A DNA stretch of 64,000 nucleotides from Felis catus (lineage: Eukaryota): assembly GCF_018350175.1 (NCBI RefSeq), contig NC_058377.1, positions 61,752,001-61,816,000 on the forward strand, written 5' to 3'. Below, in pieces: positions 6,599-57,365 of the stretch; position 1 is the stretch's first letter; each line of letters begins with the position of its first letter. Under the pieces are notes generated by a model, which made no database searches, was not told where the DNA came from, and worked only from the letters and a program-made list of their open reading frames with translations. Position numbers and translations under genes: made by a program.

Positions 6599-6747
6599 NN
6601 NNNNNNNNNNNNNNNNNNNNNNNNNNNNNNNNNNNNNNNNNNNNNNNNNNNNNNNNNNNNNNNNNNNNNNNNNNNNNNNNNNNNNNNNNNNNNNNNNNNN
6701 NNNNNNNNNNNNNNNNNNNNNNNNNNNNNNNNNNNNNNNNNNNNNNN
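6599..6747. other. Assembly gap (others at 7411-7569, 9340-9573, 46330-46489 and 49971-50099)
   Basis: Runs of N. Confidence 1.
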
Positions 6748-7684
6748 TTTGCTTTTGTTACTCGATCTTTTGGTGTCATATCCAAAATATTGTCACTGAG
6801 AACAATGTCAAGGAGCTTTTCTCCCATGTTCTCTTTTAGCAGTTTTATGCTTTTAGGTCTTACATTTAAGTCTAATTCATTTTGAGTTACTTTGTGTGAG
6901 TGTGTAAGATGGGGATTTAACTTCATTATTTTGCATGTGATTATCAAGTAGTCCCATCACCACTTCTTGAAGAGACTTTCCACTCTCTCCATTGAATATT
7001 CTTGCCTTTCTTGTCAAATACTAGTTGGCCATATATGTGTGAGTTTATTTCTGGGCTGTTGATTCTGTTCTATTGGTCTATATGTCTGTCTTCATGCCAG
7101 TAAAACTTTTTTGATTGCCCGAGCTTTGTAATAAAGTTTGAAATCATAAAGTGTGTGATGCTTTAGGTTTTATTCTTCTTTCTCAAGATTTCTTTGGTTA
7201 TCTGGGAATTTTAGTGGTGCGACATGAGCAGTTAGGCAAGAAAACTGTTTAAAAGTCATCCAAATTAGAAAGATAAAAATAAAATTATCTCTGTTTACAG
7301 ATGATATGATCTTATATAGAGAAAATCCTAAACACTCCATTACAAAAACTATTAGAAATAATAAGCAAATTCAATCAGGTTTCAGGGTACAAAATCAACA
7401 TAATAAACTGNNNNNNNNNNNNNNNNNNNNNNNNNNNNNNNNNNNNNNNNNNNNNNNNNNNNNNNNNNNNNNNNNNNNNNNNNNNNNNNNNNNNNNNNNN
7501 NNNNNNNNNNNNNNNNNNNNNNNNNNNNNNNNNNNNNNNNNNNNNNNNNNNNNNNNNNNNNNNNNNNNNATAAACTGAATAAGATACAAATAAATGGAAG
7601 GATATTTCATGTTCATGGGTAGGAAGAATTAATATTTTTTAAATGTCCATACTGCCCAAAGGCATCAAAATTCCAATGGCATTT

Positions 7685-8166: not shown

Positions 8167-10050
8167 GAATTGGTTTCTGACAAACTTACAAAAGTAATTC
8201 AATGGAATAATGATAGCTTCATCTAAAAATAGTGCTGGAGTAATTAGCCATCTCTGGGGAGGGGGGTGGAAGGAGAAATACTCCCACTTTATACAGAATT
8301 AACTCAAAATTAATATGGACCATAAATTTAAGTGTAAAATATGATACTCTAAAACTTTTAGAAAAATACAAGGGCAAATCTTTGGGGTCTAGGGCAAAGT
8401 GAAGAGTTATGTTTGACATGGAAAGACTTTGTTAAGAGAATGGAAAGATGAGCTACAAACTTCGAGAAAATATTTACAAACAACATATCTGACAAAGACC
8501 TAGTATATGGAATGTTTTAAGAACTCTCAAAACTTCATGGGGCGCCTGGGTGGCGCAGTGGGTTAAGCGTCTGACTTCAGCCAGGTCACGATCTCGCGGT
8601 CCGTGGGTTCGAGCCCCGCGTCGGGCTCTGGGCTGATGGCTCAGAGCCTGGAGCCTGTTTCCGATTCTGTGTCTCTCTCTCTCTCTCGGCCCCTCCCCCG
8701 TTCATGCTCTGTCTCTCTCTGTCCCAAAAATAAATTAAAAACGTTGAAAAAAAATTAAAAAAAAAAAGAACTCTCAAATATAGAAAAATCTAACAGTAAA
8801 ATCAGAAAATAAGCAGAAGACATGAACAAGCATCTCACTGAAGGGAATGCATAAATGGCATATAAATTCATGAAAAGATGCCGACATCATTAATTATTAG
8901 TAAAATGCAAAGTAGAACCACAATCAGATATTACTACAGCATTTCAGAATGGCTTACATGAAAAATGGCACCAAATGCTGTCAAAGATACAGAGGATTTG
9001 GAGCATTCAGACACTGCTGGTGGGAACAGAAAGTGGTACGGCCACTCTGGCAAACACTTAGCAGTTTCTTGTAAAACTAACCATGACTTACCTTATGGTC
9101 TAGCAGTTGTACTTTTGTGTATTCATCTCAGAAAAAATAAAAACATACACCAACCCAAAAACTTGTGCACAAATGTTTATAGCAGCTTTTTAAAAATAAT
9201 TGCTAAAAACTGCAAATAACCTAAATGCTCTCCAGTCACAGAATACTTAAACAAACTGACAAATCCATACAATGAATTGCTGCGCAGCAAAGAAAGGAAA
9301 CAAACTATTAATACATGCAACCAGTGGATACTTTTAAGANNNNNNNNNNNNNNNNNNNNNNNNNNNNNNNNNNNNNNNNNNNNNNNNNNNNNNNNNNNNN
9401 NNNNNNNNNNNNNNNNNNNNNNNNNNNNNNNNNNNNNNNNNNNNNNNNNNNNNNNNNNNNNNNNNNNNNNNNNNNNNNNNNNNNNNNNNNNNNNNNNNNN
9501 NNNNNNNNNNNNNNNNNNNNNNNNNNNNNNNNNNNNNNNNNNNNNNNNNNNNNNNNNNNNNNNNNNNNNNNNNGGGAGGGAGGACGGAGAGAGGGAGGGA
9601 AGCAAGAAAGCCAATTGAGTCTATTTATGTAATTTTCTTGAAACAACACAATTTTAGATACAGAACACAGATTAGTAGCTGGCCAAAGTTAAGAACAAGG
9701 GGAGGGAAAAAGGAAGAGAAGTGAGTATGTCTATAAAGGAGTAGCATTAGGTAGCCTCATACAGATGAGTCAGTTTGGTATTTTGGCTGTGGTGGTATTT
9801 ATAAGAATCTGCAATGTGACACAGTTGCATAAAACTGTATGCACATACATAAAAGTTGAGTGTATATAAAAATAAGTGCATATTTAAATAATCTCTGTGG
9901 ATCATACCACTGTCGATTTGTGGTTTTTGACATTATACTATATTTATGCTAGATGTTTTTATTGGAGAAAACTGGGTAAAACTTCCACAGGATCTCCCGA
10001 TATATATTTTTGCAACTTCTTATGAGTTAATAAGTATTTAAAAATAAAAA
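8167..10050 (+). mobile_element. Old L1 ORF2 3' end and 3'UTR (right part of the host L1)
   Basis: ORF 8965-9219 resembles the L1 ORF2 C-terminus. Contains a SINE and an N gap. Confidence 0.7.
8539..8768 (+). mobile_element. Young felid SINEC_Fc
   Basis: ggggcgcctgggtggcgcag...(CT)n...A tail; flanking repeat AAGAACTCTCAAA. Confidence 0.95.
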
Positions 10051-16274: not shown

Positions 16275-17579
16275 GCCAGTACTATTTAAAGATCATGAAA
16301 CCACAGCCCAAGATTAAATAACTTTCCCAATATTATTATTGTTACAAAGTAGCAGAACTGGAATAACAAATGCTTCCGGAGGTAAAAACTCAATAATCTT
16401 ATACACCTTTTTTCATGGGCAAAAAGATGTCCTAGGATTCATATATCAAATTCACAGCAAGATGTTCTTTTCAAAGCATGTGAGATACACAGTCCCTACC
16501 AACCAGAGTAGAAGGTGGCTCTCCTTTTCTCTGAATGATGCCACCAATGCATGTTTGTTTGTTTTTTTACTCCTAGAGTTTGGCTACGTATACCAGGTGA
16601 TGCCTGAAATTTGAATGTCACAGAGCCTTCTCACTTTTGTTAAATCTCATCACACTCCACAGTTTGTAAAAAATTTTCTTCTTGAACTTGCCTAGATAAC
16701 GGATTTCTATCTTTGTACCTCCAGATAGGTGATATGTTAACAGTAATCTGTGCTGTTAACAAATAGTGCTCTCAAATGTTTGTCATTAAATCCCCTTTTT
16801 ATTGCTCATTTTTGTATCTACACTATAAAATTTTAAATTCTTTGAGGCACATCACATCAATAACCAAAGAATTATGATGTTAAGCAACATGGATTTTGAT
16901 GTCTATGTGTTGTGGAGATAAACACATATAATTTGCTCATATCATTTTTGTGATAAATGTGATATATGATATCATATCATTTTTCAAAAGTCTCTAGAGC
17001 TTCAGGTTTTTTCCTCCAGACATAATGAGTATTGATCATTCCCTCAAATCAACTAAGTCTATTTGATTGACTGATTGATTGATTGATTGATTATTTATTT
17101 GTTTGTTTTGCTATTGATGTTCATACTTGCTCTTCTTGGCATTAATTCTCCTCTGATCTTTCAGGTTTCATACTTTCTGAGAAATATCACAAGTGAAGAT
17201 AAAGAGCACATTGAAAAATACACTGTAAGTTCCAACACTATCATAGCACTATTCAAATATACTGATGTCTTCTTGCATTCTGCCTTTATTTTCTCGGTTA
17301 TATAATTTATAAGGACATCAACTAGGTCTATTCTGTCGACATTGCTGTATTTCCTGTATGTTGTACAGTAGCAATGAATAATACATAGAGTTCCTTATAC
17401 ACTCTATTTTCCCATACCTAGAAATCTCCAAATAATGACTAAATTATCATCCTTGCTATCACTGGAAGTCAAGACTGATAAACATCTTATGAACAGGTAG
17501 CACACTCAAGGGCAACTTCTACAGAAGAGCTTCTACTGCATTACCTGAAGGGAGTATTTTCTTCTTTGCAAGGCTTGCA

Positions 17580-18518
17580 ATGTGGCTCAACACCACCACT
17601 TCCCTGTTTCTGCTTACTGGTTTCCCAGGCATGGAGAAGGCACACCACTGGATTTCCATACCATTATTAGGGGTTTACGTCTCCATACTTCTTGGTAATG
17701 GCACTCTTCTCTTTCTTATCAGGGATGATCATAACCTTCACGAGCCCATGTACTATTTCTTAGCTATGCTGGCAGCCACAGACCTTGGAGTGACTTTGAC
17801 CACGATGCCCACAGTTCTGGGCGTTCTATGGTTGAATCACAGAGAGATTGGCCATCAGGCCTGCTTCTCTCAGGCCTACTTTATCCACACTCTTTCTATC
17901 GTAGAATCTGGTGTTTTGCTTGCCATGGCCTATGACCGCTTCATTGCCATCCGCAACCCCTTGAGATATACTTCCATCCTTACCAACACCAAGGTAATGA
18001 AGATTGGGATGGGGGTATTGACAAGGGCTGGTCTGTCAATCATGCCAATAATTATCCGCCTCCACTGGTTTCCCTATTGTCGATCCCATGTACTCTCTCA
18101 TGCTTTCTGTCTACACCAAGATGTCATCAAGTTAGCTTGTGCTGACATCACCTTCAATCGTCTCTATCCAGTTGTGGTTGTATTTGCAATGGTCTTGTTG
18201 GACTTTCTTATCATCTTTTTCTCCTACTTTTTGATCCTTAAGACTGTCATGGGCATTGCTTCTGGAGAAGAAAGGGCCAAGGCCCTCAATACGTGCATTT
18301 CTCACATCTGCTGCATCCTGGTCTTCTATGTCACTGTAGTTGGTCTAACATTTATTCATAGGTTTGGAAAGCATGCTCCTCGTGTGGTCCACATCACAAT
18401 GAGCTACATCTACTTCCTTTTCCCCCCTTTTATGAATCCTGTTATATATAGCATTAAAACCAAGCAGATCCAGAGTGGTATAATTCGTTTATTCTCTCTG
18501 CCTAACTCTAGAGCATAA
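17580..18518 (+). CDS. OR51B6: Olfactory receptor 51B6, intact single coding exon, 312 aa
   Basis: OR motifs [48 protein letters not shown]. Closely matches recalled human OR51B6 ([20 protein letters not shown], RLFSLPxSRA). A pyrimidine tract plus AG at about 17557-17572 precedes the ATG. Confidence 0.93.
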
Positions 18519-24947: not shown

Positions 24948-25880
24948 ATGGAGCTCAACACCAGTGCCCCACCCTTTCTGCTGACCGGCTTCGTGGGCCT
25001 GGAAAAGGCTCACCACTGGATCTCTATCCCGTTATCTGTCATCTAGATTGCCATACTTCATGGCAATGGCATTCTCCTATTTCTCATCAGGGTTGACCAT
25101 AACCTCCACGAGCCCATGTACTATTTCTTAGCCATGCTGGCAACCACAGACCTTGGGATGACCCTGGTTACAATGCCTACAGGGCTGTGTGTGATGTGGA
25201 CAAATCATAGGGAAATCAGCCATGGTTCCTGCTTTTGCCAAGCCTGCTTCATCCACACTTTCTCTGTCATACAGTCTGGGATTTTGCTTGCCAAGGCCTA
25301 TGATCAGTTTGTTGCCATCCACAACCCACTGAGATATACTTCCATTCTTACCAACACCCAAATGATAAAGATTGGAGTGGGGGTTTTCATGAAGGGATTT
25401 ACAGTCATCTTGCCTCCAATATTCCCTCTCGATTGGTTTTCCTATTGCAGGTCCCAGTTCTTCTCTCATGCATTCTGCCTCCACCAGGATGTCATCAAAT
25501 TAGCCTGTGCTGACATCACCTTCAATTGCCTATATCCTATTGTGATGGTATTTTCTATGGTCCTAATGGACTGCCTGATAATCTTTTGCTTCTATATTTT
25601 GATTCTCAAAACTGTCATGAGTATTGCATCTGGAGAGGAGGGGTCCAAGGCACTCAACAAATGTGCCTCCCACATCTGCTGTATCTTGGTCTTCTATGTC
25701 ACTGTTTTGGTTTGACATTCATCTACCGATTTGGGAAGAAATGGTCCCCATCTAGTACACATCACAAATAGCTACATCTACTTCCTTTCCCTTCTTTTAT
25801 GAACCCTGTCATCTGTAGTATTAAAACTAAGCAGATTCGCAATAGTATTCTCCAGTTCCCATCAAGAACATGGTATTTAC
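24948..25880 (+). pseudogene. OR51B-subfamily pseudogene (paralog of OR51B6/B5)
   Basis: ATG 24948 gives [32 protein letters not shown], then an in-frame TAG at 25044-25046. The frame continues into ORF 25116-25715 with MAYDR degraded to KAYDQ. One-base frameshifts relative to OR51B6 occur near 25706, 25740 and 25788. A residual MNPVICSIKTKQIR follows. The 3' end is approximate. Confidence 0.92.
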
Positions 25881-29747: not shown

Positions 29748-30181
29748 TTTTTTTTTTAATTTTTTTAATGTTTATTTATTTTTGAGAGAGAAAGAGAGAA
29801 TGAAAGCAGGGAGGGGCAGAGAGAGAGGGAGACACAGAATCCAAAGCAGGCTCCAGGCTCTGAGCTGTCAGCATGGAGCCCAATGCGGGGCTTGAACTCA
29901 TGAACCCTAAGATCATGACCCAAGCTGAAGTTGGACACTTAACCAACTGAACCATACAGGTGCCCTGATTTTTTTTTAAACATTTATTCATTTTTGAGAG
30001 ACAGAGAGACAGAGCATGAATGAGGAAGGGGCAGAGCGAGAGGGAGACACAAAATCAGAAGTGGAGTCCAGGCTCTGACCTGTCAGCACGGAGCCTGACA
30101 CGGGGCTCAAACTTAGGAACCATGAGATCATGACCTGAGTGGAAGTCAGACACTTAACCGACTAAGCCACCCAGAGGCCCC
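29748..30181 (-). mobile_element. Two tandem CanSINEs (about 29748-29965 and 29969-30181)
   Basis: Two complete bodies, head to tail. Confidence 0.9.
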
Positions 30182-31496: not shown

Positions 31497-32444
31497 CTAG
31501 TGCAATTGTCTATGAGAAACGAGGTGAAAAATTCTTTGACGGATCTGTTTTGTTTTAATACTATAGATAATAGGGTTCATCACAGGAGGTGCTAGTAGAT
31601 AGATGTTGGCCAGGATGACATGTACAATTGGAGGGGCATGCTTGGCAAAGCGGTGAGTCATGGAAAGTCCCACCAAGGGCACATAGAGGACCAGAACAGC
31701 CAGAATGTGAGACAGACAGTTATTGAGAGCCTGGAAACTTTCACCCTGGGAGCTGATTCTCAAGACACTTCTCAGAATGAGTGCATAGGAGACCACAATG
31801 AGCAGGGGGTCCAATGTAGTAAAGACCAGAGCTATAACAAATCCATACCAATTATTGATAGTGGTATCAGCACACACCAGGCGAATCATGTCTTGATGAA
31901 GGCAGTAGGAGTGGGAGAGATGGTGGGAGCCACAAAATGGAAGCCGTTTCAGTAGGAATAATGCAGGAAGAACAGTCAGAACACAGCGGAAAATGATGGC
32001 TATCCCTATTCTTCTGATGACCCGGTTGGTAAGGATGGAGACATAATGGAGGGGGCGGCAGATGGCCACATAGCGGTCAAAGGACATGGCCAACAACACG
32101 GAAGATTCCATAAAAGAGAATCCATGGAGGAAGAAGAACTGGGCAAAACAAGCCTCAAAGCTGATCTCTGAGGCATTAAACCAGAGGAGTCCCATGACTG
32201 TAGGCAAAGTGGTGAGGGTAAGCCCCAGGTCTGTTAGAGCCAAAATAGAGAGGAACAAGTACATGGGCTCTTGTAGGGAGGGCTCTATCCTGATGACAGC
32301 CAGGATGGTGATATTGCCCACAATGGAGACCGTGTAGAGACAACAGAAGGGGATGGAAATCCAGCCATGGGAAACCTCAAAGCCAGGGATGCCCATGAGG
32401 ATGAAGAAGAAGGGGACTTGAGTGGAGTTAGTAACCCAAAACAT
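31497..32444 (-). CDS. OR51Q1-like olfactory receptor, intact, 315 aa (orthology to human OR51Q1 uncertain)
   Basis: True ATG is at 32444; the track starts at an upstream TTG. Motifs: [77 protein letters not shown], which are characteristic of OR51Q. A minus-strand acceptor CTTTTCACAG ends at 32487. Confidence 0.92.
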   Translation of the reverse strand: MFWVTNSTQVPFFFILMGIPGFEVSHGWISIPFCCLYTVSIVGNITILAVIRIEPSLQEPMYLFLSILALTDLGLTLTTLPTVMGLLWFNASEISFEACFAQFFFLHGFSFMESSVLLAMSFDRYVAICRPLHYVSILTNRVIRRIGIAIIFRCVLTVLPALFLLKRLPFCGSHHLSHSYCLHQDMIRLVCADTTINNWYGFVIALVFTTLDPLLIVVSYALILRSVLRISSQGESFQALNNCLSHILAVLVLYVPLVGLSMTHRFAKHAPPIVHVILANIYLLAPPVMNPIIYSIKTKQIRQRIFHLVSHRQLH

Positions 32445-33282
32445 GACTGGAAGAGGCAGCCTCAAGACCAGAGCTCTTTCCCAAATCTGTGAAAAGTGGA
32501 CAACATAAGGATTGAAATAAATAGTCTATGACTATCCGAAGTCACTCTGTGATAGATCATCAAGTAAGACCTGGGGAAAGAGAGCTATCTGGGCAATGAG
32601 TTTACAAATGTTTTATCAGTTTTGCTTGTTTTAGCTCTTACCTTGCCATCTCTTGTCAACCACTGAGTTGACAGCATGAAGTTCTCATTAGTTTTAACCC
32701 AAAGACTTCTTTATACATCCAGAAGGCAGTTATGCCTTTGCAGCAGAAGGTATAAGGGTACATTTTGGCCATTGGAAAGAATAACTGTGGAGAAGAGATT
32801 ACTGTAGGACACCTTTGGATGGCATGGGGCTAGGAGAAAAAAAGAGAGAGCCGAGACCAGTAAATGTAAAAAAACGATTCCATTATGCTTAGTGACTCTT
32901 TTGAACCAAGTGAACAATAAAGAGAGACCTGAACTGAGGTAACAGAGTGGGGAAAGATAATGCCTGTCTTCAGAGCCTAGGATTCCTGAGACAGAACTTT
33001 TAGAGGCCATATGGTGCAAGGACTCTGTTGGAAAGGACCTTCCATGAGCGAAATGGGTCAAACTTGGGTGCTCAGATATCTGTCAAAAGAACCTATATTA
33101 GAAGACTAGGCCTAGGAAGCACTTTCTTGGAAAGAATACAACAATAATAGTAGGAACATCTCCACAGGAACAGCCTAATAGCATTGGAATAAGGCAAAAT
33201 ACCCTCTTGGTGCATAAAGCAGTTGGATCCATTGGATCAGCCAATAGATTTCTGGGAAGCTGTTTAAGTTCATATTGATGGA

Positions 33283-36799: not shown

Positions 36800-37359
36800 C
36801 CACACCCCAACTCTCAAGTGTTTCCCAAACTGTTGAAGAATTTTACTCTTCCACAAGCAACATCTGGGAGTTCCAAGTGTTCCACATCCATAACAACATA
36901 TGGTACTATCTGTTGTCTTAACTGTAGTCATCCTGGTGTCTAGAAGTCATTTTATGGTGGTTTAAATTGGCGTTTCCTTAATGACTAATAATTTGATCAT
37001 CTTTTCATATGCTTCTTAGACATTAGCATATCTTCTGTGAAAATACTTACATTAAAAGTTTGCCTGCTTTCATTGGACTGTCTTCTCATTATTGAGGTAT
37101 AAGAATTCTGTATTCAATCTGGATCCAAGCCTTTTTCAAATGTACATAATTTTTTTTTTTCAATCTCTGGATTGACTTTATTTCCTTAACAGAGTCTTGT
37201 GAAGGGCAGACTTTGTTAATTTTAATGAAGTTTAATTTATTAATTCATTTTTTTTCTTAAAATAGATCATAAAGATTTTTTTCCTATATTTTCTCCTCGA
37301 TGTTTTACAGTTTGGATATATTTTTATTATGTACACCTAGGTCTTTGCTGTGTTAAATG

Positions 37360-37394
<35 letters not shown>

Positions 37395-39150
37395 TTTACA
37401 CCAAACCAGACTTCTCTATAGGAAAGACCGCATGTTTGAATCCTTTGACCACACGTTAGGAAAAGGTGACCTTGACACTAGGTATTCTTTTTTTTTTTTT
37501 TTTAATTTTTTTTTTCAACGTTTTTATTTATTTTTCGGACAGAGAGAGACAGAGCATGAACGGGGGAGGGGCAGAGAGAGAGGGAGACACAGAATTGGAA
37601 ACAGGCTCCAGGCTCTGAGCCATCAGCCCAGAGCCTGACGCGGGGCTCGAACTCCCGGAATGGGAGATCGTGACCTGGCTGAAGTCGGACGCTCAACCGA
37701 CTGGCCACCCAGGCGCCCCTAAATGAACTTTTGTGTAAGGTATGAGATAAGGTGAAAGCTAATTTTATTTTTGTATAAATATACAGATGGACCAGCACCA
37801 TTTATTGAAAATATTATTTTTTCTTACAAAAATAGTTGGTGACTTTGTCAAATATCAATAATTGAGTTATGTGAAGATCTCTTTGTGAACTCTCTCATCT
37901 GTTTTATTGATGTGCTTGTCTCTCATTATGATTATTTGGCACTATTTTACTGAAGATTTACAGTAAGTATTGAAATTAGGTAGTATATAAGCTGTACAAA
38001 ACTGTTCTTTATTTGTAAGGTGTTTAGCTAATCCAGATCTTTTGCATTTCTATAAAAAAATGTGAAAAATCTATGGAATTCTACAAAAAAATGCTAAGAA
38101 TTTTTTCCCCCTACCTTCCAAATGAATGTGCTAAGGTCTTATTCTTTTTTTTTTTTATTGTTACTGGATTCACTTACTATTATTTTGTTAAGACCTTAAA
38201 AACAAACAAACAAAAACAAACAAACAAACAAACATGGATGGAAACTGTTCATGGATGGAAAATATAAGGTAGTAATTTTCTTTCCTCAGCAAAGTCTTTG
38301 CACTGTTTTAGAATCAGAAATGTGTTGACCCAGTGTTGGTATGTTTCTTTTTTATCTATGATAATGTAATTTCATGTATAGCCTAATTTAATCTTTGTAC
38401 CACTGTTCAGATATGTTTTACCTCTACTTACATGATAATTACACAATATTTTGTTATTATTTTGGTTTAATATCAATTGTGTTTTAAGGAATTCAATAGA
38501 GAGAAAACAGTCTTAATCTCAAGTGTTATTTAGCCTAAAAATGTTTATTTTACATTAGGTTTTGAGGTAAATTTTCACTAAAAATCTACATGAAGAGATT
38601 TTATTTCCACCACATCACAAATGAAATCACACATTTTTTCCTTTGACCCCTGTTGTTTCTGAAGAAAAGTCGTACGACATTCTTTTCATAGTTTCTTTGT
38701 ATGCAACGTGTGTTTTTTAATATTCATTCACCTGTATGTTTTCTTTAATTGACCTTGCTCCATATTTGCTGAGCATCTGAATTCATGGGTATCCTTTATG
38801 TTATAATATTTAAAAACTTCAGGCAATAATTCTTCAAAAATTTTTTATCTTTTTTTCCTCTCTTCTTCCCTTCTAATACACCAATTGCACATGTGGTCGA
38901 CATCTTGATCTACCATCTCTGGGAGTCTTTTAATTAAAAAAAAAAATCTTTTTGTTTCATTCAGTGCTTCTGTTTGGATAATTAATATTGATGCATCTTT
39001 GAGTTCAGTTACCCTTTCTCCTATGCTGTCCAATCTGCTCTGGATCCCATCCAATAATATTTTGATTTTAGTATTTTATTTTTCTCTAGTTGGATTCTCA
39101 TTTATTTTTTTCATACTTTCCAAATATTTCCTGAAATTTCTAATCTCATC
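36800..39150 (-). mobile_element. Degraded old L1 fragments, antisense
   Basis: T-rich L1-like phrases such as ccagcaccattttattgaaa. ORF 38845-39054 resembles the L1 ORF1 coiled coil (MDGIQSRLDSIGERVTELKD). Confidence 0.65.
37363..37719 (-). mobile_element. Young SINEC_Fc with a 97-bp 3' transduction and a second poly(A) tail
   Basis: TSD TAAATGAACTTTT at 37354-37366 and 37720-37732 brackets T28, unique sequence 37391-37487, a T-tail and the SINE body. Confidence 0.88.
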
Positions 39151-45093: not shown

Positions 45094-46763
45094 CCATCAT
45101 TACCCAAGGGGACAGAGATGTGCCCAAGAACTATTCCTTTGTTGTTCGGTGCCACCAGCCTTCAGAAACAAATTCTGCCTTCCCAGCCTGGGACAAACTG
45201 TTCAGTAAACTGTGTTTAACACAATCTGTTTTCTTTACCAAATACGATCTTCATAAAGAGAAAACTATGTCATGTCAACTTATGTATCTGCAAGGCCTTG
45301 CTCAGGGTTTTTCAGAGCAGACACTTAATAGATGCATAGCAAACGAAAATTGATAAGAATGGTTAATGTCATTTCAATCTTCATTCTAAAGGATTTTTCT
45401 GTGATATAAAAAAATAAAACAAAAAGACCTAAGAACATTTTGTATTTCTTAAAATGACAATTCCTTGGGCGCTAGTCCTTCATTTACTGTATAATTCAGA
45501 GAAGCAGAGTAGAAAGCTATTATATAGATGCTAGCAAGAAATATAAGGCAAATAGTATTGCAAGCCTCCAGATAAGTGGAAGGTTATCCATCCACTCCAT
45601 AGTATCATTTAGCCACGTGAAGAGCTAGGAGTTATTCTCACCTAGCACCGTGCACCAAACAATGTCTGTTGCCAGTGCAGATTTTAAATACTTTATACAT
45701 ATTGCTAATAATATCTTCCATAAAAAAATACAAGGTCATTCCTTGCTTTGTTAAACTCAATCATCAATATGCATACAGTCTTCCAGACTCTTATCTCTGC
45801 CTACATCTACTGTCTCATTCTAAGGCATTACTTCTCTCAAATTTTATATTTGAGTATTGGAGAATTTTATGGTTCTCAGAAAAATTTCCTCACCTCTATG
45901 CCTTAGCGTATACCCCTCCTTCCTGCCATTCCTTTGCTATAAAGTCCTGTCTCATGATTAATTCTTGCTTAGTCTTCATAGCTCAGTTTGAGTACCTTCC
46001 CTGTGCCTCCCAGTTGGGCTAGTTGCTATGCACCCAAACTCCCATAATTGCTACGTCCATGTCTTTGGTTGTCCATATGATTGTTGTATCATTTCATATG
46101 TCATAGAGGCCCCCAAATAATAGCAATAGTTGCTGCTGATGGTAATAACAGAAGCAATTGTTCCCTAACTTGGCTCCCTCTAGGACATGACCAAAATTAT
46201 GTTCTCAATAAAGGCAGAATATTCTCAATTTTTTCTGATACGAATTTTATTTCCTACAAACCTAATTGAGGATTTTCAACTCTCTCCCTCTGTTGCCTGA
46301 GCCAGAACTCTCTTCATCAACTACAATTTNNNNNNNNNNNNNNNNNNNNNNNNNNNNNNNNNNNNNNNNNNNNNNNNNNNNNNNNNNNNNNNNNNNNNNN
46401 NNNNNNNNNNNNNNNNNNNNNNNNNNNNNNNNNNNNNNNNNNNNNNNNNNNNNNNNNNNNNNNNNNNNNNNNNNNNNNNNNNNNNNNNNTCAAAAGATGA
46501 CCTGCTCTCTGCATCCTGTCCTGTCACCCTAACTCTGCCTGCCTACAGTCTGTCCATAATTACTGGCTATTTACCTCGTCTGAGGTGATGCCATCTTCTA
46601 TCTAGGTGTATTCTGATCACACTGGCATGTCATAAACTTCAGGGGTCTCTGTCCTCACTTTGGGTCTATATGTCCCATTTGGGGGGTTCACATTCATGCA
46701 AACCTGATCAACTATCTCCTGCTTATGATTACATTATTATAATACCTTGTGAATGCCAATCTC

Positions 46764-49689: not shown

Positions 49690-50500
49690 ACAAACAGCAC
49701 ACATATAAGGAGTATATATAAGATACAAATAACATATTTCATATATAGGGTATATAAGAAATACGTGTATGTAGGTGTAAGTATAAATATCTGTAAGTAT
49801 AATTATATATAAAGAATATATCTATGAAGAAAATATATCATATTATATGAAGTATGTATAGGTAAATATACTTATTTTTGTTATAGTATACATATATGTA
49901 TTTGTAATTATTACTTATGTGTAACATAAGTAGATACTATATATAAGTATAAATAAGTGTATCTATATACNNNNNNNNNNNNNNNNNNNNNNNNNNNNNN
50001 NNNNNNNNNNNNNNNNNNNNNNNNNNNNNNNNNNNNNNNNNNNNNNNNNNNNNNNNNNNNNNNNNNNNNNNNNNNNNNNNNNNNNNNNNNNNNNNNNNNT
50101 ACACTTAAAAAATTTCTTTAACATTTAATTATTTTTGAGAGAGCATGAGCGGGGATGGGGAAGGGACTAAGAGAGGAGACAGAATCCAAAGCAGGCTCCA
50201 GGCTCAGAGCTGTCAGCACAGAGCCCGATGTGGGGCTCAAACCCATGAAACCATAAGCTGAAGTTGAATGCTTAACTGACTGAGCCACTCAGGTGCCCCT
50301 GTTATTTATAGTATACATATTTGTAATTGTATATACTTATATATAACATATAAGTAGATATTACATATAGTATAAATAAGTGTATTTATAAGCATGTATA
50401 TACTTATCTTTAATATATATGTATATATAAAGGATATATAAGGATAAGTATAAATAAGTGTGTGTATATATATGTATGTATATATATATATAAAGGAAGT
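49690..50500. repeat. TA-rich low-complexity region with a degenerate repeat of about 95 bp and an N gap
   Basis: 49872-49970 resembles 50301-50393 (tatagtatacatat...ttgtaatt...ataagtagata...gtataaataagtgtat). Confidence 0.75.
50105..50299 (-). mobile_element. CanSINE in an AT-rich low-complexity tract
   Basis: Ends gagccactcaggtgcccc. Confidence 0.88.
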
Positions 50501-54000: not shown

Positions 54001-54173
54001 TGAAGGCGGTGCTAGCAAAGACTAAAGGTAGTAGAATGGTAGAATTGATAATAGTGAACTAGATGATAGCAAAGAAGATGATGGTCATGATTCTCCTTCT
54101 GTGTGATTGTTAGTGAGACCAGAAGAACTAATAACCAGAAATATCCATTTATTTTCAGCTCCATCCCTGAGGA

Positions 54174-55160
54174 ATGATAGCTCTCTTCAGTCCTCAATTC
54201 ATGCTCTTATCCAACATTACTCAGTTTAGTCCCATGTTCTACCTCACTGGCTTTCCTGGATTGGACACCATCGAACACTGGATTTTCATCCCCTTTTTCC
54301 TTATGTACCTTGTGGCCATCTCGGGCAATTGTTTCATTCTGATAGTTATTAAGACCAACCCTCGTCTGCACAGACCCATGTACTATCTACTCTCTTTTCT
54401 GGCCTTCACTGACCTGGGACTGTCAGTGTCTACCTTGCCCACCACTATGGGAATCTTTTGGTTCAAATCTCATGGTATCTACTTTGTGGCTTGTCAGATC
54501 CAGATGTTCTGTATCCACTCATTTTCCTTCATGGAGTCCTCAGTGCTCCTTATTATGTCCTTTGACCGCTTTTTGGCTATCTGCCACCCCCTTAGGTACT
54601 CGGTCATTATCACTAGCCAGCGAGTGATCAGGGCAGGTCTGGCTGTCATCTTCCGGGGACCTGTGGCCCTAGTTCCCCTTGTCCTCCTCCTGAAGTCTTT
54701 TCCCTACTGTGGGCCTCGAGTCCTTTCCCATTCTTTCTGCCTACACCAGGAAGTGATACACTTGGCCTGCACAGATACCACCTTCAACAACCTGTATGGG
54801 CTGGCAGTGGTGGTGTTCACTATGATGCTGGACCTGGTGCTCATTGCACTGTCTTATGGGGTCATCCTGCACACCGTGGCAAGACTGGCCTCCCAAGAGG
54901 AGCAGCTCCGAGCCTTCCAAACATGTACCTCACACCTCTGTGCTGTACTGATATTCTTTGTGCCTATGGTGGGGCTGTCCCTCGTGCACCGCTTTGGGAA
55001 GCACGTCCCACTTGCTGTCCACCTTCTCATGGCCAATGTCTATCTCTTTGTGCCTCCTATGCTTAATCCAATCATATACAGTATTAAGACCAAGGAGATC
55101 CGCCACATTATCAGCAAACTCCTCGGTCTTAAGAACGTCAGTACTAAGTCTTGGAGCTAA
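54174..55160 (+). CDS. OR51M1: Olfactory receptor 51M1, intact, 328 aa (alternative start Met at 54201)
   Basis: [16 protein letters not shown]-terminus, [43 protein letters not shown] and [16 protein letters not shown] match recalled human OR51M1. Acceptor-like TTTATTTTCAG ends at 54158. Confidence 0.93.
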
Positions 55161-56705: not shown

Positions 56706-57365
56706 GGGGTGCCTGGGTGGCTCAGTTGGTTAAGTGTCCGACTTTGGTTCAGGTCATGATCTCATGGTGGTGGGTTTGAGCCCTGTGTTGGGCTCTGTGC
56801 TGACAGCTCAGAGCCTGGAGCCTGCTTCAGTTTCTGTGTCTCCCTCTCTCTGCCCCTCCTCCACTTGCTCTCTCTCTCTCTCTCTCTCAAAAATAAACAT
56901 TAAAGCGTTGCCTGGGTGGCTCAGTCGGTTGAGCTTCCAACTTCAGGCCAGGTCATGATCTCGTGGTTCACGAGATCAAGCCCTACGGGTGGATTCTGTG
57001 CTGAACTTGCTATGGATTCTGCGTCTCCCTCTCTCCCATCTCTCTCTGCCCCTCCCCAGCTCACACCCTGTCTCTCTCTCTTTCTCAAAAACAAATAAAA
57101 ACTTTAAAAAAAATAAAATAAAGGGGCGCCTGGGTGGCTTGGTCGGTTAAGCGTCCGACTTCGGCTCAGGTCATGATCTCACAGTCCGTGAGTTCGAGCC
57201 CCGCGTCGGGCTCTGTGCTGACAGCTCAGAGCCTGGAGTCTGTTTCAGATTCTGTGTCTCCCTCTCTCTCTGCCCCTCCCCTGTTCATGCTCTGTCTCTC
57301 TCCATCTCGAAAATAAATAAACGTTTAAAAAATTTAAAAAAATAAATAAAATAAATATTTAAAAA
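56706..57365 (+). mobile_element. Three head-to-tail CanSINEs (starts near 56706, 56906 and 57123)
   Basis: Each begins at the A tail of the previous one; outer flanks TAAACTAAATT / TAAACTCAATT. Confidence 0.92.

What the first reader, a model, noticed from the sequence alone, without database searches (positions are those of the whole stretch)
37354..37732. CanSINE-mediated 3' transduction of 97 bp of foreign DNA
Seen, in element (minus) orientation: TSD, full young SINEC_Fc with AATAAA and A tail, 97 bp of non-SINE sequence (GAATACCTAGTGTCAAGG...GGTGTAAACTTT), A28, TSD. One 13-bp TSD encloses everything, and the host L1 is continuous outside it. The extra segment ends in TTT just before the second poly(A). 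Known: CanSINEs are AATAAA-bearing Pol III elements whose transcripts can be polyadenylated after terminating at a T run. Inference: the transcript read through the source element's flank (including an internal T4), terminated, was polyadenylated and retrotransposed. Transductions are well known for L1 and SVA and much less reported for tRNA SINEs. The tag should identify the active source locus.
Basis: partly seen in the sequence, partly recalled or inferred. Interest (0 to 1): 0.7.

Follow-up and report, generated by a model that had tools for sequence, protein, structure and literature searches.

The report
Cat SINE with 97-base hitchhiker
A cat-family jumping repeat sits inside one insertion scar together with 97 unrelated bases and a second poly(A) tail, likely picked up from the DNA beside its parent copy; the parent was not found, but such tags would let one trace which parent copies are active.

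Summary
The anatomy is confirmed. One perfect 13-bp TSD encloses a full felid CanSINE, its A10-TT-A16 tail, 97 bp of non-SINE DNA ending in TTT, and A28, inside a decayed L1 ORF2. Contigs from 4 of 4 public runs indirectly show the filled allele.

Best reading (0.55): Pol III read through a terminator-less source SINE, stopped in a T run, and the RNA was polyadenylated via the SINE's own AATAAA and retrotransposed. The tag has no poly(A) signal of its own, and mouse B2 transcripts are polyadenylated up to 97 bp past the element (PMC12101331).

Against: two terminators inside the tag (TTTT, TCTTT), a 126-nt distance beyond the documented range, and no donor (no cat genome available). Any SINE 3' transduction: about 0.67.

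The scan noted similar, unverified cases before (39 and 47 bp in this genome, others elsewhere). A survey of 118,489 AluY confirmed none. Verdict: a good candidate, unproven.

The parts
37720..37732 (-). 5' copy of the 13-bp target site duplication; the + strand reads TTTT/G at 37729-37733, an L1 endonuclease-like nick site
37516..37719 (-). Full-length felid CanSINE body: tRNA-like head (box A about 37707-37697 with a 1-nt deletion; box B about 37654-37644), TC-rich motif (about 37594-37537), AATAAA twice, only a TT terminator rudiment (37518-37517)
   Evidence: box positions read from the sequence using recalled box consensus
37523..37532 (-). Two overlapping AATAAA polyadenylation signals, 136 and 132 nt from the end of the tag
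37488..37515 (-). First A tail, A10-TT-A16, the same module layout as in three peer copies (A8-9, TT/TTT, A7-11)
37391..37487 (-). 97-bp non-SINE tag, 41% GC, single copy in the window, none of 18 poly(A)-signal hexamers; internal TTTT (37464-37461) and TCTTT (37427-37423); ends in TTT (37393-37391)
37363..37390 (-). Second poly(A), a pure A28, the longest A/T homopolymer in the window; its last 4 A overlap the TSD
37354..37366 (-). 3' copy of the target site duplication
37270..37780 (-). Host: decayed L1 ORF2 fragment in the same orientation, collinear across the insertion (approximate aligned span)

Best explanation
One 13-bp target site duplication encloses a full felid CanSINE, its A tail, 97 unrelated bases ending in TTT and a pure A28; this is likely a single L1-made insertion of a Pol III transcript that probably ran past its terminator-less source SINE into flanking DNA and was likely polyadenylated there using the SINE's own AATAAA. 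Shown by the sequence: the anatomy, no T4 or TCTTT terminator in the SINE, no poly(A) signal in the tag. Inferred: (1) Pol III started at +1 of a source copy elsewhere; (2) it passed a TTTT and a TCTTT in the flank; (3) it stopped in a longer T run, leaving UUU; (4) AAUAAA plus the TC motif directed a new poly(A); (5) L1 ORF2p primed on that tail and copied the whole RNA, old tail and flank included. The insertion is most likely inert; its use is as a barcode of the source locus.
For: The 5' junction falls exactly on SINE +1. The SINE and 6 of 7 other window copies have no T4 or TCTTT in their first 215 nt (the seventh has one TTTT in its body), so read-through into the flank is the default. 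The tag has none of 18 poly(A)-signal hexamers, so it does not look like a Pol II 3' end (hexamer list recalled). It ends in TTT, seen at 5.2% of random non-A positions and before 0 of 29 A-runs of 8 or more outside SINE tails. In B2 constructs TTTT stops 65% and TCTTT 50% of transcripts (PMC8466645 section 2.4), so about 17% would pass both if those rates carry over. Mouse B2 transcripts ending at flank terminators 28-97 bp downstream are polyadenylated (PMC12101331 passages). Dog Can_b2 copies capture terminators from their TSD and pass them on shortened (PMC9599045 section 3.4). Weak hint that the SINE's odd bases are inherited from a source lineage: in run X1 an exact 59-nt contig, every 31-mer of which carries 3-5 of them, has 12 times the depth of the unique flank (385.2 against 32.2).
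Against: No donor and no empty site were seen. Two terminators must be passed. The end lies 126 nt beyond the TT rudiment and 132-136 nt beyond AATAAA, past the 97-bp maximum in B2; efficiency already fell 2.6-fold with about 25 extra nt in HeLa cells. A systematic search confirmed no transduction among 118,489 human AluY, although 633 had a distant TSD. The SINE body is about twice as diverged as its peers while A28 is pure, which also fits an older SINE plus a newer nested insertion. In 7 of 7 other young copies examined the TSD abuts the A tail with no tag.
Confidence: 0.55

Rival explanations
1. Nested second insertion: the SINE came first, and a 5'-truncated poly(A) retrocopy (the tag) later inserted at the TT/AAAA inside its tail. 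Its TSD would be all A (the A16, repeated inside A28) and so invisible.
For: TT followed by A16 is a consensus L1 endonuclease site and a normal TSD length. It explains a diverged SINE body next to a pure A28. SINE tails in this window do host other insertions (tandem copies at 29748-30181 and 56706-57351).
Against: The tag has no poly(A) signal and ends in TTT. Peer copies have only A7-11 in this position. The SINE's odd bases seem shared with other copies, so they need not reflect age at this site.
Confidence: 0.13
2. Chimera: L1 reverse transcriptase copied the last 97 nt of an unrelated polyadenylated RNA and then switched to (or the RNA was ligated to) a full-length SINE RNA, in one event.
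For: 452 TSD-bounded Alu/LINE-1 chimeras with a mostly full-length, sense Alu at the 5' end are described (PMC13174262 passages). The geometry is the same.
Against: The 3' partner here has no poly(A) signal, no Rfam match and no window L1 match; the TTT end is unexplained.
Confidence: 0.13
3. Still a SINE 3' transduction, but without polyadenylation: the source flank holds a genomic A tract after the tag, and ORF2p primed on it (T-minus route).
For: It avoids polyadenylation 130 nt from AATAAA. T-minus retroposition of Can copies is documented. A-runs of 15 or more outside SINE tails occur 3 times in the window.
Against: 0 of 29 such runs of 8 or more are preceded by TTT (9 of 122 at 6 or more). 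It still needs read-through of TTTT and TCTTT.
Confidence: 0.12
4. A Pol II transcript (L1 read-through or host gene) running through a SINE and its flank was 5'-truncated at the SINE start (orphan transduction).
For: Orphan and parentless L1 transductions are known in carnivores (PMC13141329, PMC13103737 passages).
Against: Truncation would have to fall exactly on SINE +1, and the nearest AATAAA is 132 nt from the poly(A), against 10-40 nt in mRNA.
Confidence: 0.04
5. Assembly artefact joining two loci at homopolymers.
For: No listed contig spans the whole stretch, and the tool skipped 37353-37520 as repeat.
Against: A perfect TSD with a collinear host on both sides.
Confidence: 0.03

Closest known systems
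L1 and SVA 3' transduction (canine data: PMC13141329, PMC13103737, PMC13756887; passages read)
   Same: Element, flank tag and new poly(A) inside one TSD; the tag is a barcode of the source.
   Different: The element is a Pol III tRNA SINE; the end point would be set by a T-run terminator, not by a downstream Pol II poly(A) signal. In the passages read, those papers searched only LINE-1 for transductions.
T+ retroposition of dog Can_b2 with terminator capture from the TSD (Kosushkin 2022, PMC9599045; section 3.4 and passages)
   Same: Rudimentary TT terminator, a new terminator taken from beyond the old tail, a daughter with a shortened T run and a long poly(A).
   Different: There the capture reaches only into the TSD; here 97 bp are carried, past two terminators, in a felid subfamily.
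Mouse B2 category C transcripts (PMC12101331; passages)
   Same: Pol III read-through to a flank terminator followed by polyadenylation.
   Different: Shown for RNA only, up to 97 bp; here it is a genomic copy and 126 nt.
Alu 3' transduction (Halabian et al., bioRxiv 10.1101/2024.04.29.591526; parts 1-2 of 3 read)
   Same: The same search image: distant 3' TSD, more than 70 nt of extra DNA.
   Different: No AluY case was confirmed and traced candidates were decayed A tails; this tag is complex sequence, and the SINE carries AATAAA. One short Alu-monomer case (Kojima) and AluSx-WaluSat (Hoyt) are known to me only as cited there.
Alu/LINE-1 and small-RNA/LINE-1 chimeras (PMC13174262; passages)
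   Same: Full-length sense SINE 5' of a second poly(A)-ended segment in one TSD.
   Different: The 3' partner here is not a recognisable L1 end.

Membership tests
Felid CanSINE, subfamily II (IIB / SINEC_Fc1-like) | tRNA-derived head with boxes A and B, T at position 3 of box B | tested here: met
   92-93% identical to window copies that ARAGORN calls tRNA-like; box B has the T described for cats. Box A has a 1-nt deletion and ARAGORN does not call this copy.
Felid CanSINE, subfamily II (IIB / SINEC_Fc1-like) | TC-rich motif, AATAAA repeats, A tail | tested here: met
Felid CanSINE, subfamily II (IIB / SINEC_Fc1-like) | Subtype diagnostics (T indel in the tRNA region, G in box A) and match to the Repbase consensus | tested here: inconclusive
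   It lacks the extra T, like the four least diverged copies; the box A site is deleted; the paper's Figure 3 and the consensus library were not available.
L1-mediated (TPRT) insertion | TSD of about 7-20 bp and 3' poly(A) | tested here: met
   13/13 TSD and A28
L1-mediated (TPRT) insertion | Endonuclease site 5'-TTTT/AA | tested here: inconclusive
   TTTT/G: the four T match, the following bases do not (consensus)
L1-mediated (TPRT) insertion | Empty allele with a single target copy | not testable with these tools
   No other felid genome; 4 of 4 laid runs look filled. Surrogate: collinear host L1, weak.
3' transduction (criteria of Halabian et al.) | More than 70 nt of non-satellite, non-element DNA between element and poly(A), inside the TSD | tested here: met
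   97 bp, no window or Rfam match; no repeat library was available
3' transduction (criteria of Halabian et al.) | Source locus with the tag directly 3' of a same-subfamily element, followed by T4 or longer | not testable with these tools
   searches gave no donor
T+ (polyadenylation-dependent) SINE retroposition | AATAAA plus TC motif, and a shortened T run directly before the poly(A) | tested here: met
T+ (polyadenylation-dependent) SINE retroposition | The end point is the first effective terminator and lies within the documented distance (up to 97 bp) | tested here: not met
   TTTT and TCTTT lie upstream; the distance is 126 nt. This lowers the T+ claim but does not exclude it, since both terminators are leaky.

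The most novel reading that the evidence does not exclude
Young cat CanSINEs keep a poly(A) signal but have lost their terminator, so they routinely read into their flanks, are polyadenylated there and carry flank tags of about 100 bp to new sites. SINE 3' transduction would then be a recurrent class in felids, unlike Alu, and the tags would give the first genome-wide map of active SINE source loci and parent-daughter lineages in a mammal.
Probability: 0.35. Interest if true: 0.7.

Novelty: new variant of a known kind. Interest (0 to 1): 0.42.

Why it matters
Which few SINE copies are the active sources is a long-standing open question, because SINE daughters normally carry no trace of their parent. 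A confirmed transduction names the parent directly. It would also turn the T+ polyadenylation model into a testable genomic prediction: SINEs with AATAAA should transduce flanks and Alu should not, which fits the negative AluY survey. The insertion itself lies in a dead L1 between olfactory receptor genes and shows no sign of function.

Tried and rejected
Donor search: no own genome; 0 exact matches for two tag patterns in metagenome contigs and for one of them in bacterial genomes and viral contigs. These collections are not expected to hold cat DNA, so the blanks mean nothing. No look-alike in the scan's index. Read laying could not show the tag: the tool skipped 37353-37520 as repeat, so its zero depth there is no finding; the right flank beyond 37747 also has no cover, possibly through a filter. 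Share of words (0.90-0.94 in 20 runs) cannot tell filled from empty alleles; it only suggests that the tag exists in those runs (tag words are 6-10% of the query). Tag as a small RNA: 7 Rfam matches at E 0.45-7.5, all far below gathering. Tag as an mRNA end: no signal hexamer. Tag as an old MIR fragment: two motifs (37474-37466 and 37443-37434) resemble, from memory, an antisense MIR core; no second copy in the window at up to 2+2 mismatches (6 hits at 2+3, not examined or controlled), and no repeat library was available, so this is untested. Protein-level continuity of the host L1: flanks alone gave no ORF2p hit; against the paralog the best frames reached 12, 65 and 133 of 1000 shuffles among six frames tried, so it is inconclusive. 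A recalled precedent in Helicoverpa SINEs was not borne out: PMC3272025 has 0 occurrences of 'transduc'. PMC12941198, PMC8010984, PMC11240701 and PMC6466679 gave no SINE transduction case in the passages shown.

Full report
Observation. On the minus strand: TSD 37732-37720, a full CanSINE from 37719, AATAAA twice (37532-37523), a TT terminator rudiment, A10-TT-A16, a 97-bp tag (37487-37391) ending in TTT, A28, and TSD 37366-37354. The TSD copies are identical. An exact 13-mer recurs at this range at 67 of 57,910 window positions, and the 9 non-A bases have p about 8e-6 per position. No TSD follows the first tail. A28 is the longest A/T run in the window. The tag is single-copy in the window and matches no Rfam family.

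Context. The window is a mammalian olfactory receptor cluster (4 of 4 frames tested hit Pfam 7tm_4) with felid-type CanSINEs. The host is a decayed L1 ORF2. The flanks, joined in silico with one TSD copy, align collinearly with a single 2-nt gap at the junction to a paralog at 6750-7010, which matches human ORF2p 942-1005 at E 1e-7. This support is weak: 17 of 500 shuffles reach the score, and protein tests of the flanks alone were inconclusive. The target reads TTTT/G against the consensus TTTT/AA.

The SINE. It groups with the four least diverged window copies but differs from their majority at 9 of 196 columns, against 1, 4, 4 and 7 for those peers, and it has a 1-nt deletion in box A. It keeps 11 CpG against 13-14. 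The name SINEC_Fc could not be checked against a repeat library; the features fit subfamily II of PMC4084570 (passages). It has no T4 or TCTTT in its first 215 nt, nor do 6 of the 7 other copies tested. In 7 of 7 other young copies the TSD abuts the tail (one TSD read by eye, one with a mismatch).

Public reads. 24 runs were listed and 4 were laid. The tool skipped 37353-37520, so the tag could not be read. In 4 of 4 runs one contig of about 1.5 kb covers the left flank to 37352 and has 30 more letters. An empty allele would put 29 of those letters on 37720-37748, yet depth at 37748-37771 is 0, while joints with sides of 20 letters were laid. A heterozygote should break 14 letters past 37352. 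A filled allele would break in the T run after about 10 specific bases, as seen. I infer that these samples carry the insertion on both chromosomes; this is indirect and assumes 31-letter graph words. X15 and X20 have the same depths and are probably one data set, and may include the window's source, which leaves 2 independent runs. In X1 an exact 59-nt contig over 37631-37689, each 31-mer of which holds 3-5 of the copy's odd bases, has depth 385.2 against 32.2 for the flank; X15 lists relatives with 1-2 other letters at 101.8 and 125.9 against 38.9. This hints at a small lineage sharing those bases, but contig depth is a poor copy number and the table is cut. The donor was not found.

Mechanism. 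Shown: the start at SINE +1, no terminator in the SINE, none of 18 recalled poly(A)-signal hexamers in the tag, and a TTT end that occurs at 5.2% of random positions and before 0 of 29 long A-runs. From papers: Can transcripts are polyadenylated through AATAAA and the TC motif (PMC9599045 passages); Can_b2 copies with TT rudiments capture terminators in their TSD (section 3.4); TTTT stops 65% and TCTTT 50% of B2 transcripts, and termination leaves 2-4 U (PMC8466645 section 2.4); B2 transcripts ending 28-97 bp into the flank are polyadenylated in mouse cells (PMC12101331 passages). Inferred: read-through of both internal terminators (about 17% if B2 rates apply in other flanks), termination, polyadenylation and L1 insertion. 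I put this at 0.55.

Against it. The end is 126 nt past the rudiment, beyond the 97-bp maximum, and efficiency fell 2.6-fold with about 25 extra nt (PMC10572872 passages). The AluY survey confirmed no transduction among 118,489 copies. One enclosing TSD does not exclude a second retrocopy nested at TT/A16 with an all-A TSD (0.13), which would also explain a diverged body beside a pure A28. A SINE/RNA chimera has precedent in 452 Alu/LINE-1 cases (0.13). A templated A tract at the donor (0.12) would still be a SINE transduction. Orphan Pol II transduction (0.04) and misassembly (0.03) are unlikely.

Novelty. 3' transduction is well known for L1 and SVA, and each step proposed here is published for RNA or for TSD-length captures. 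In ten searches of the held library and the passages read I found no donor-confirmed transduction of this size by a mammalian tRNA SINE. That is limited: subscription journals are missing, most papers were read only as passages, no supplements were opened (Figure S6 of PMC12101331 and Figure S7 of PMC9599045 bear on distance and capture), and two listings with the phrase 'SINE-mediated' transduction or 3' (bioRxiv 10.1101/150482, PMC7643367) were not read. The scan's own notes list similar unverified cases: 39 and 47 bp in this genome and 170 and about 790 bp in other genomes. They are leads, not evidence.

Verdict. A real, clean structure and a good candidate for SINE-driven 3' transduction, not proven without the donor. 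New variant of a known kind; interest 0.42. If cat SINEs do this routinely (0.35), the tags would map active SINE sources (0.7).

Noticed in passing
window 8519-8780 (+): A young CanSINE has about 7 extra bases between its 5' TSD copy and the SINE start; possibly an upstream start, untemplated bases or a tiny 5' transduction.
   Followed up: no
window 29748-30181 (-) and 56706-57351 (+): Head-to-tail CanSINE arrays of two and three copies; the three-copy array ends in a younger copy with its own short TSD.
   Followed up: no
window 17493-18518, 25047-25715, 31497-32525, 54171-55160: Olfactory receptor genes (Pfam 7tm_4); the frame at 25047 is only 222 aa and may be a pseudogene.
   Followed up: partly
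window 37467-37475 (-): The tag holds a 9-mer that matches, from memory, the extended nuclear-receptor half site of the ERR/NR5A type; it overlaps the motif that resembles an old MIR, and may be chance.
   Followed up: no
window 37631-37689: A cluster of unusual SINE bases just upstream of box B appears at about 12 times single-copy depth in one run, hinting at a small CanSINE sub-lineage.
   Followed up: partly
window 6599-6747, 7411-7569, 9340-9573, 46330-46489, 49971-50099: Five runs of N; the first two fall in L1-like frames.
   Followed up: no
window 8544, 35697, 39390, 57128: ARAGORN calls four CanSINE heads as tRNA-Ala or tRNA-Arg genes; these are SINE copies, not tRNA genes.
   Followed up: yes
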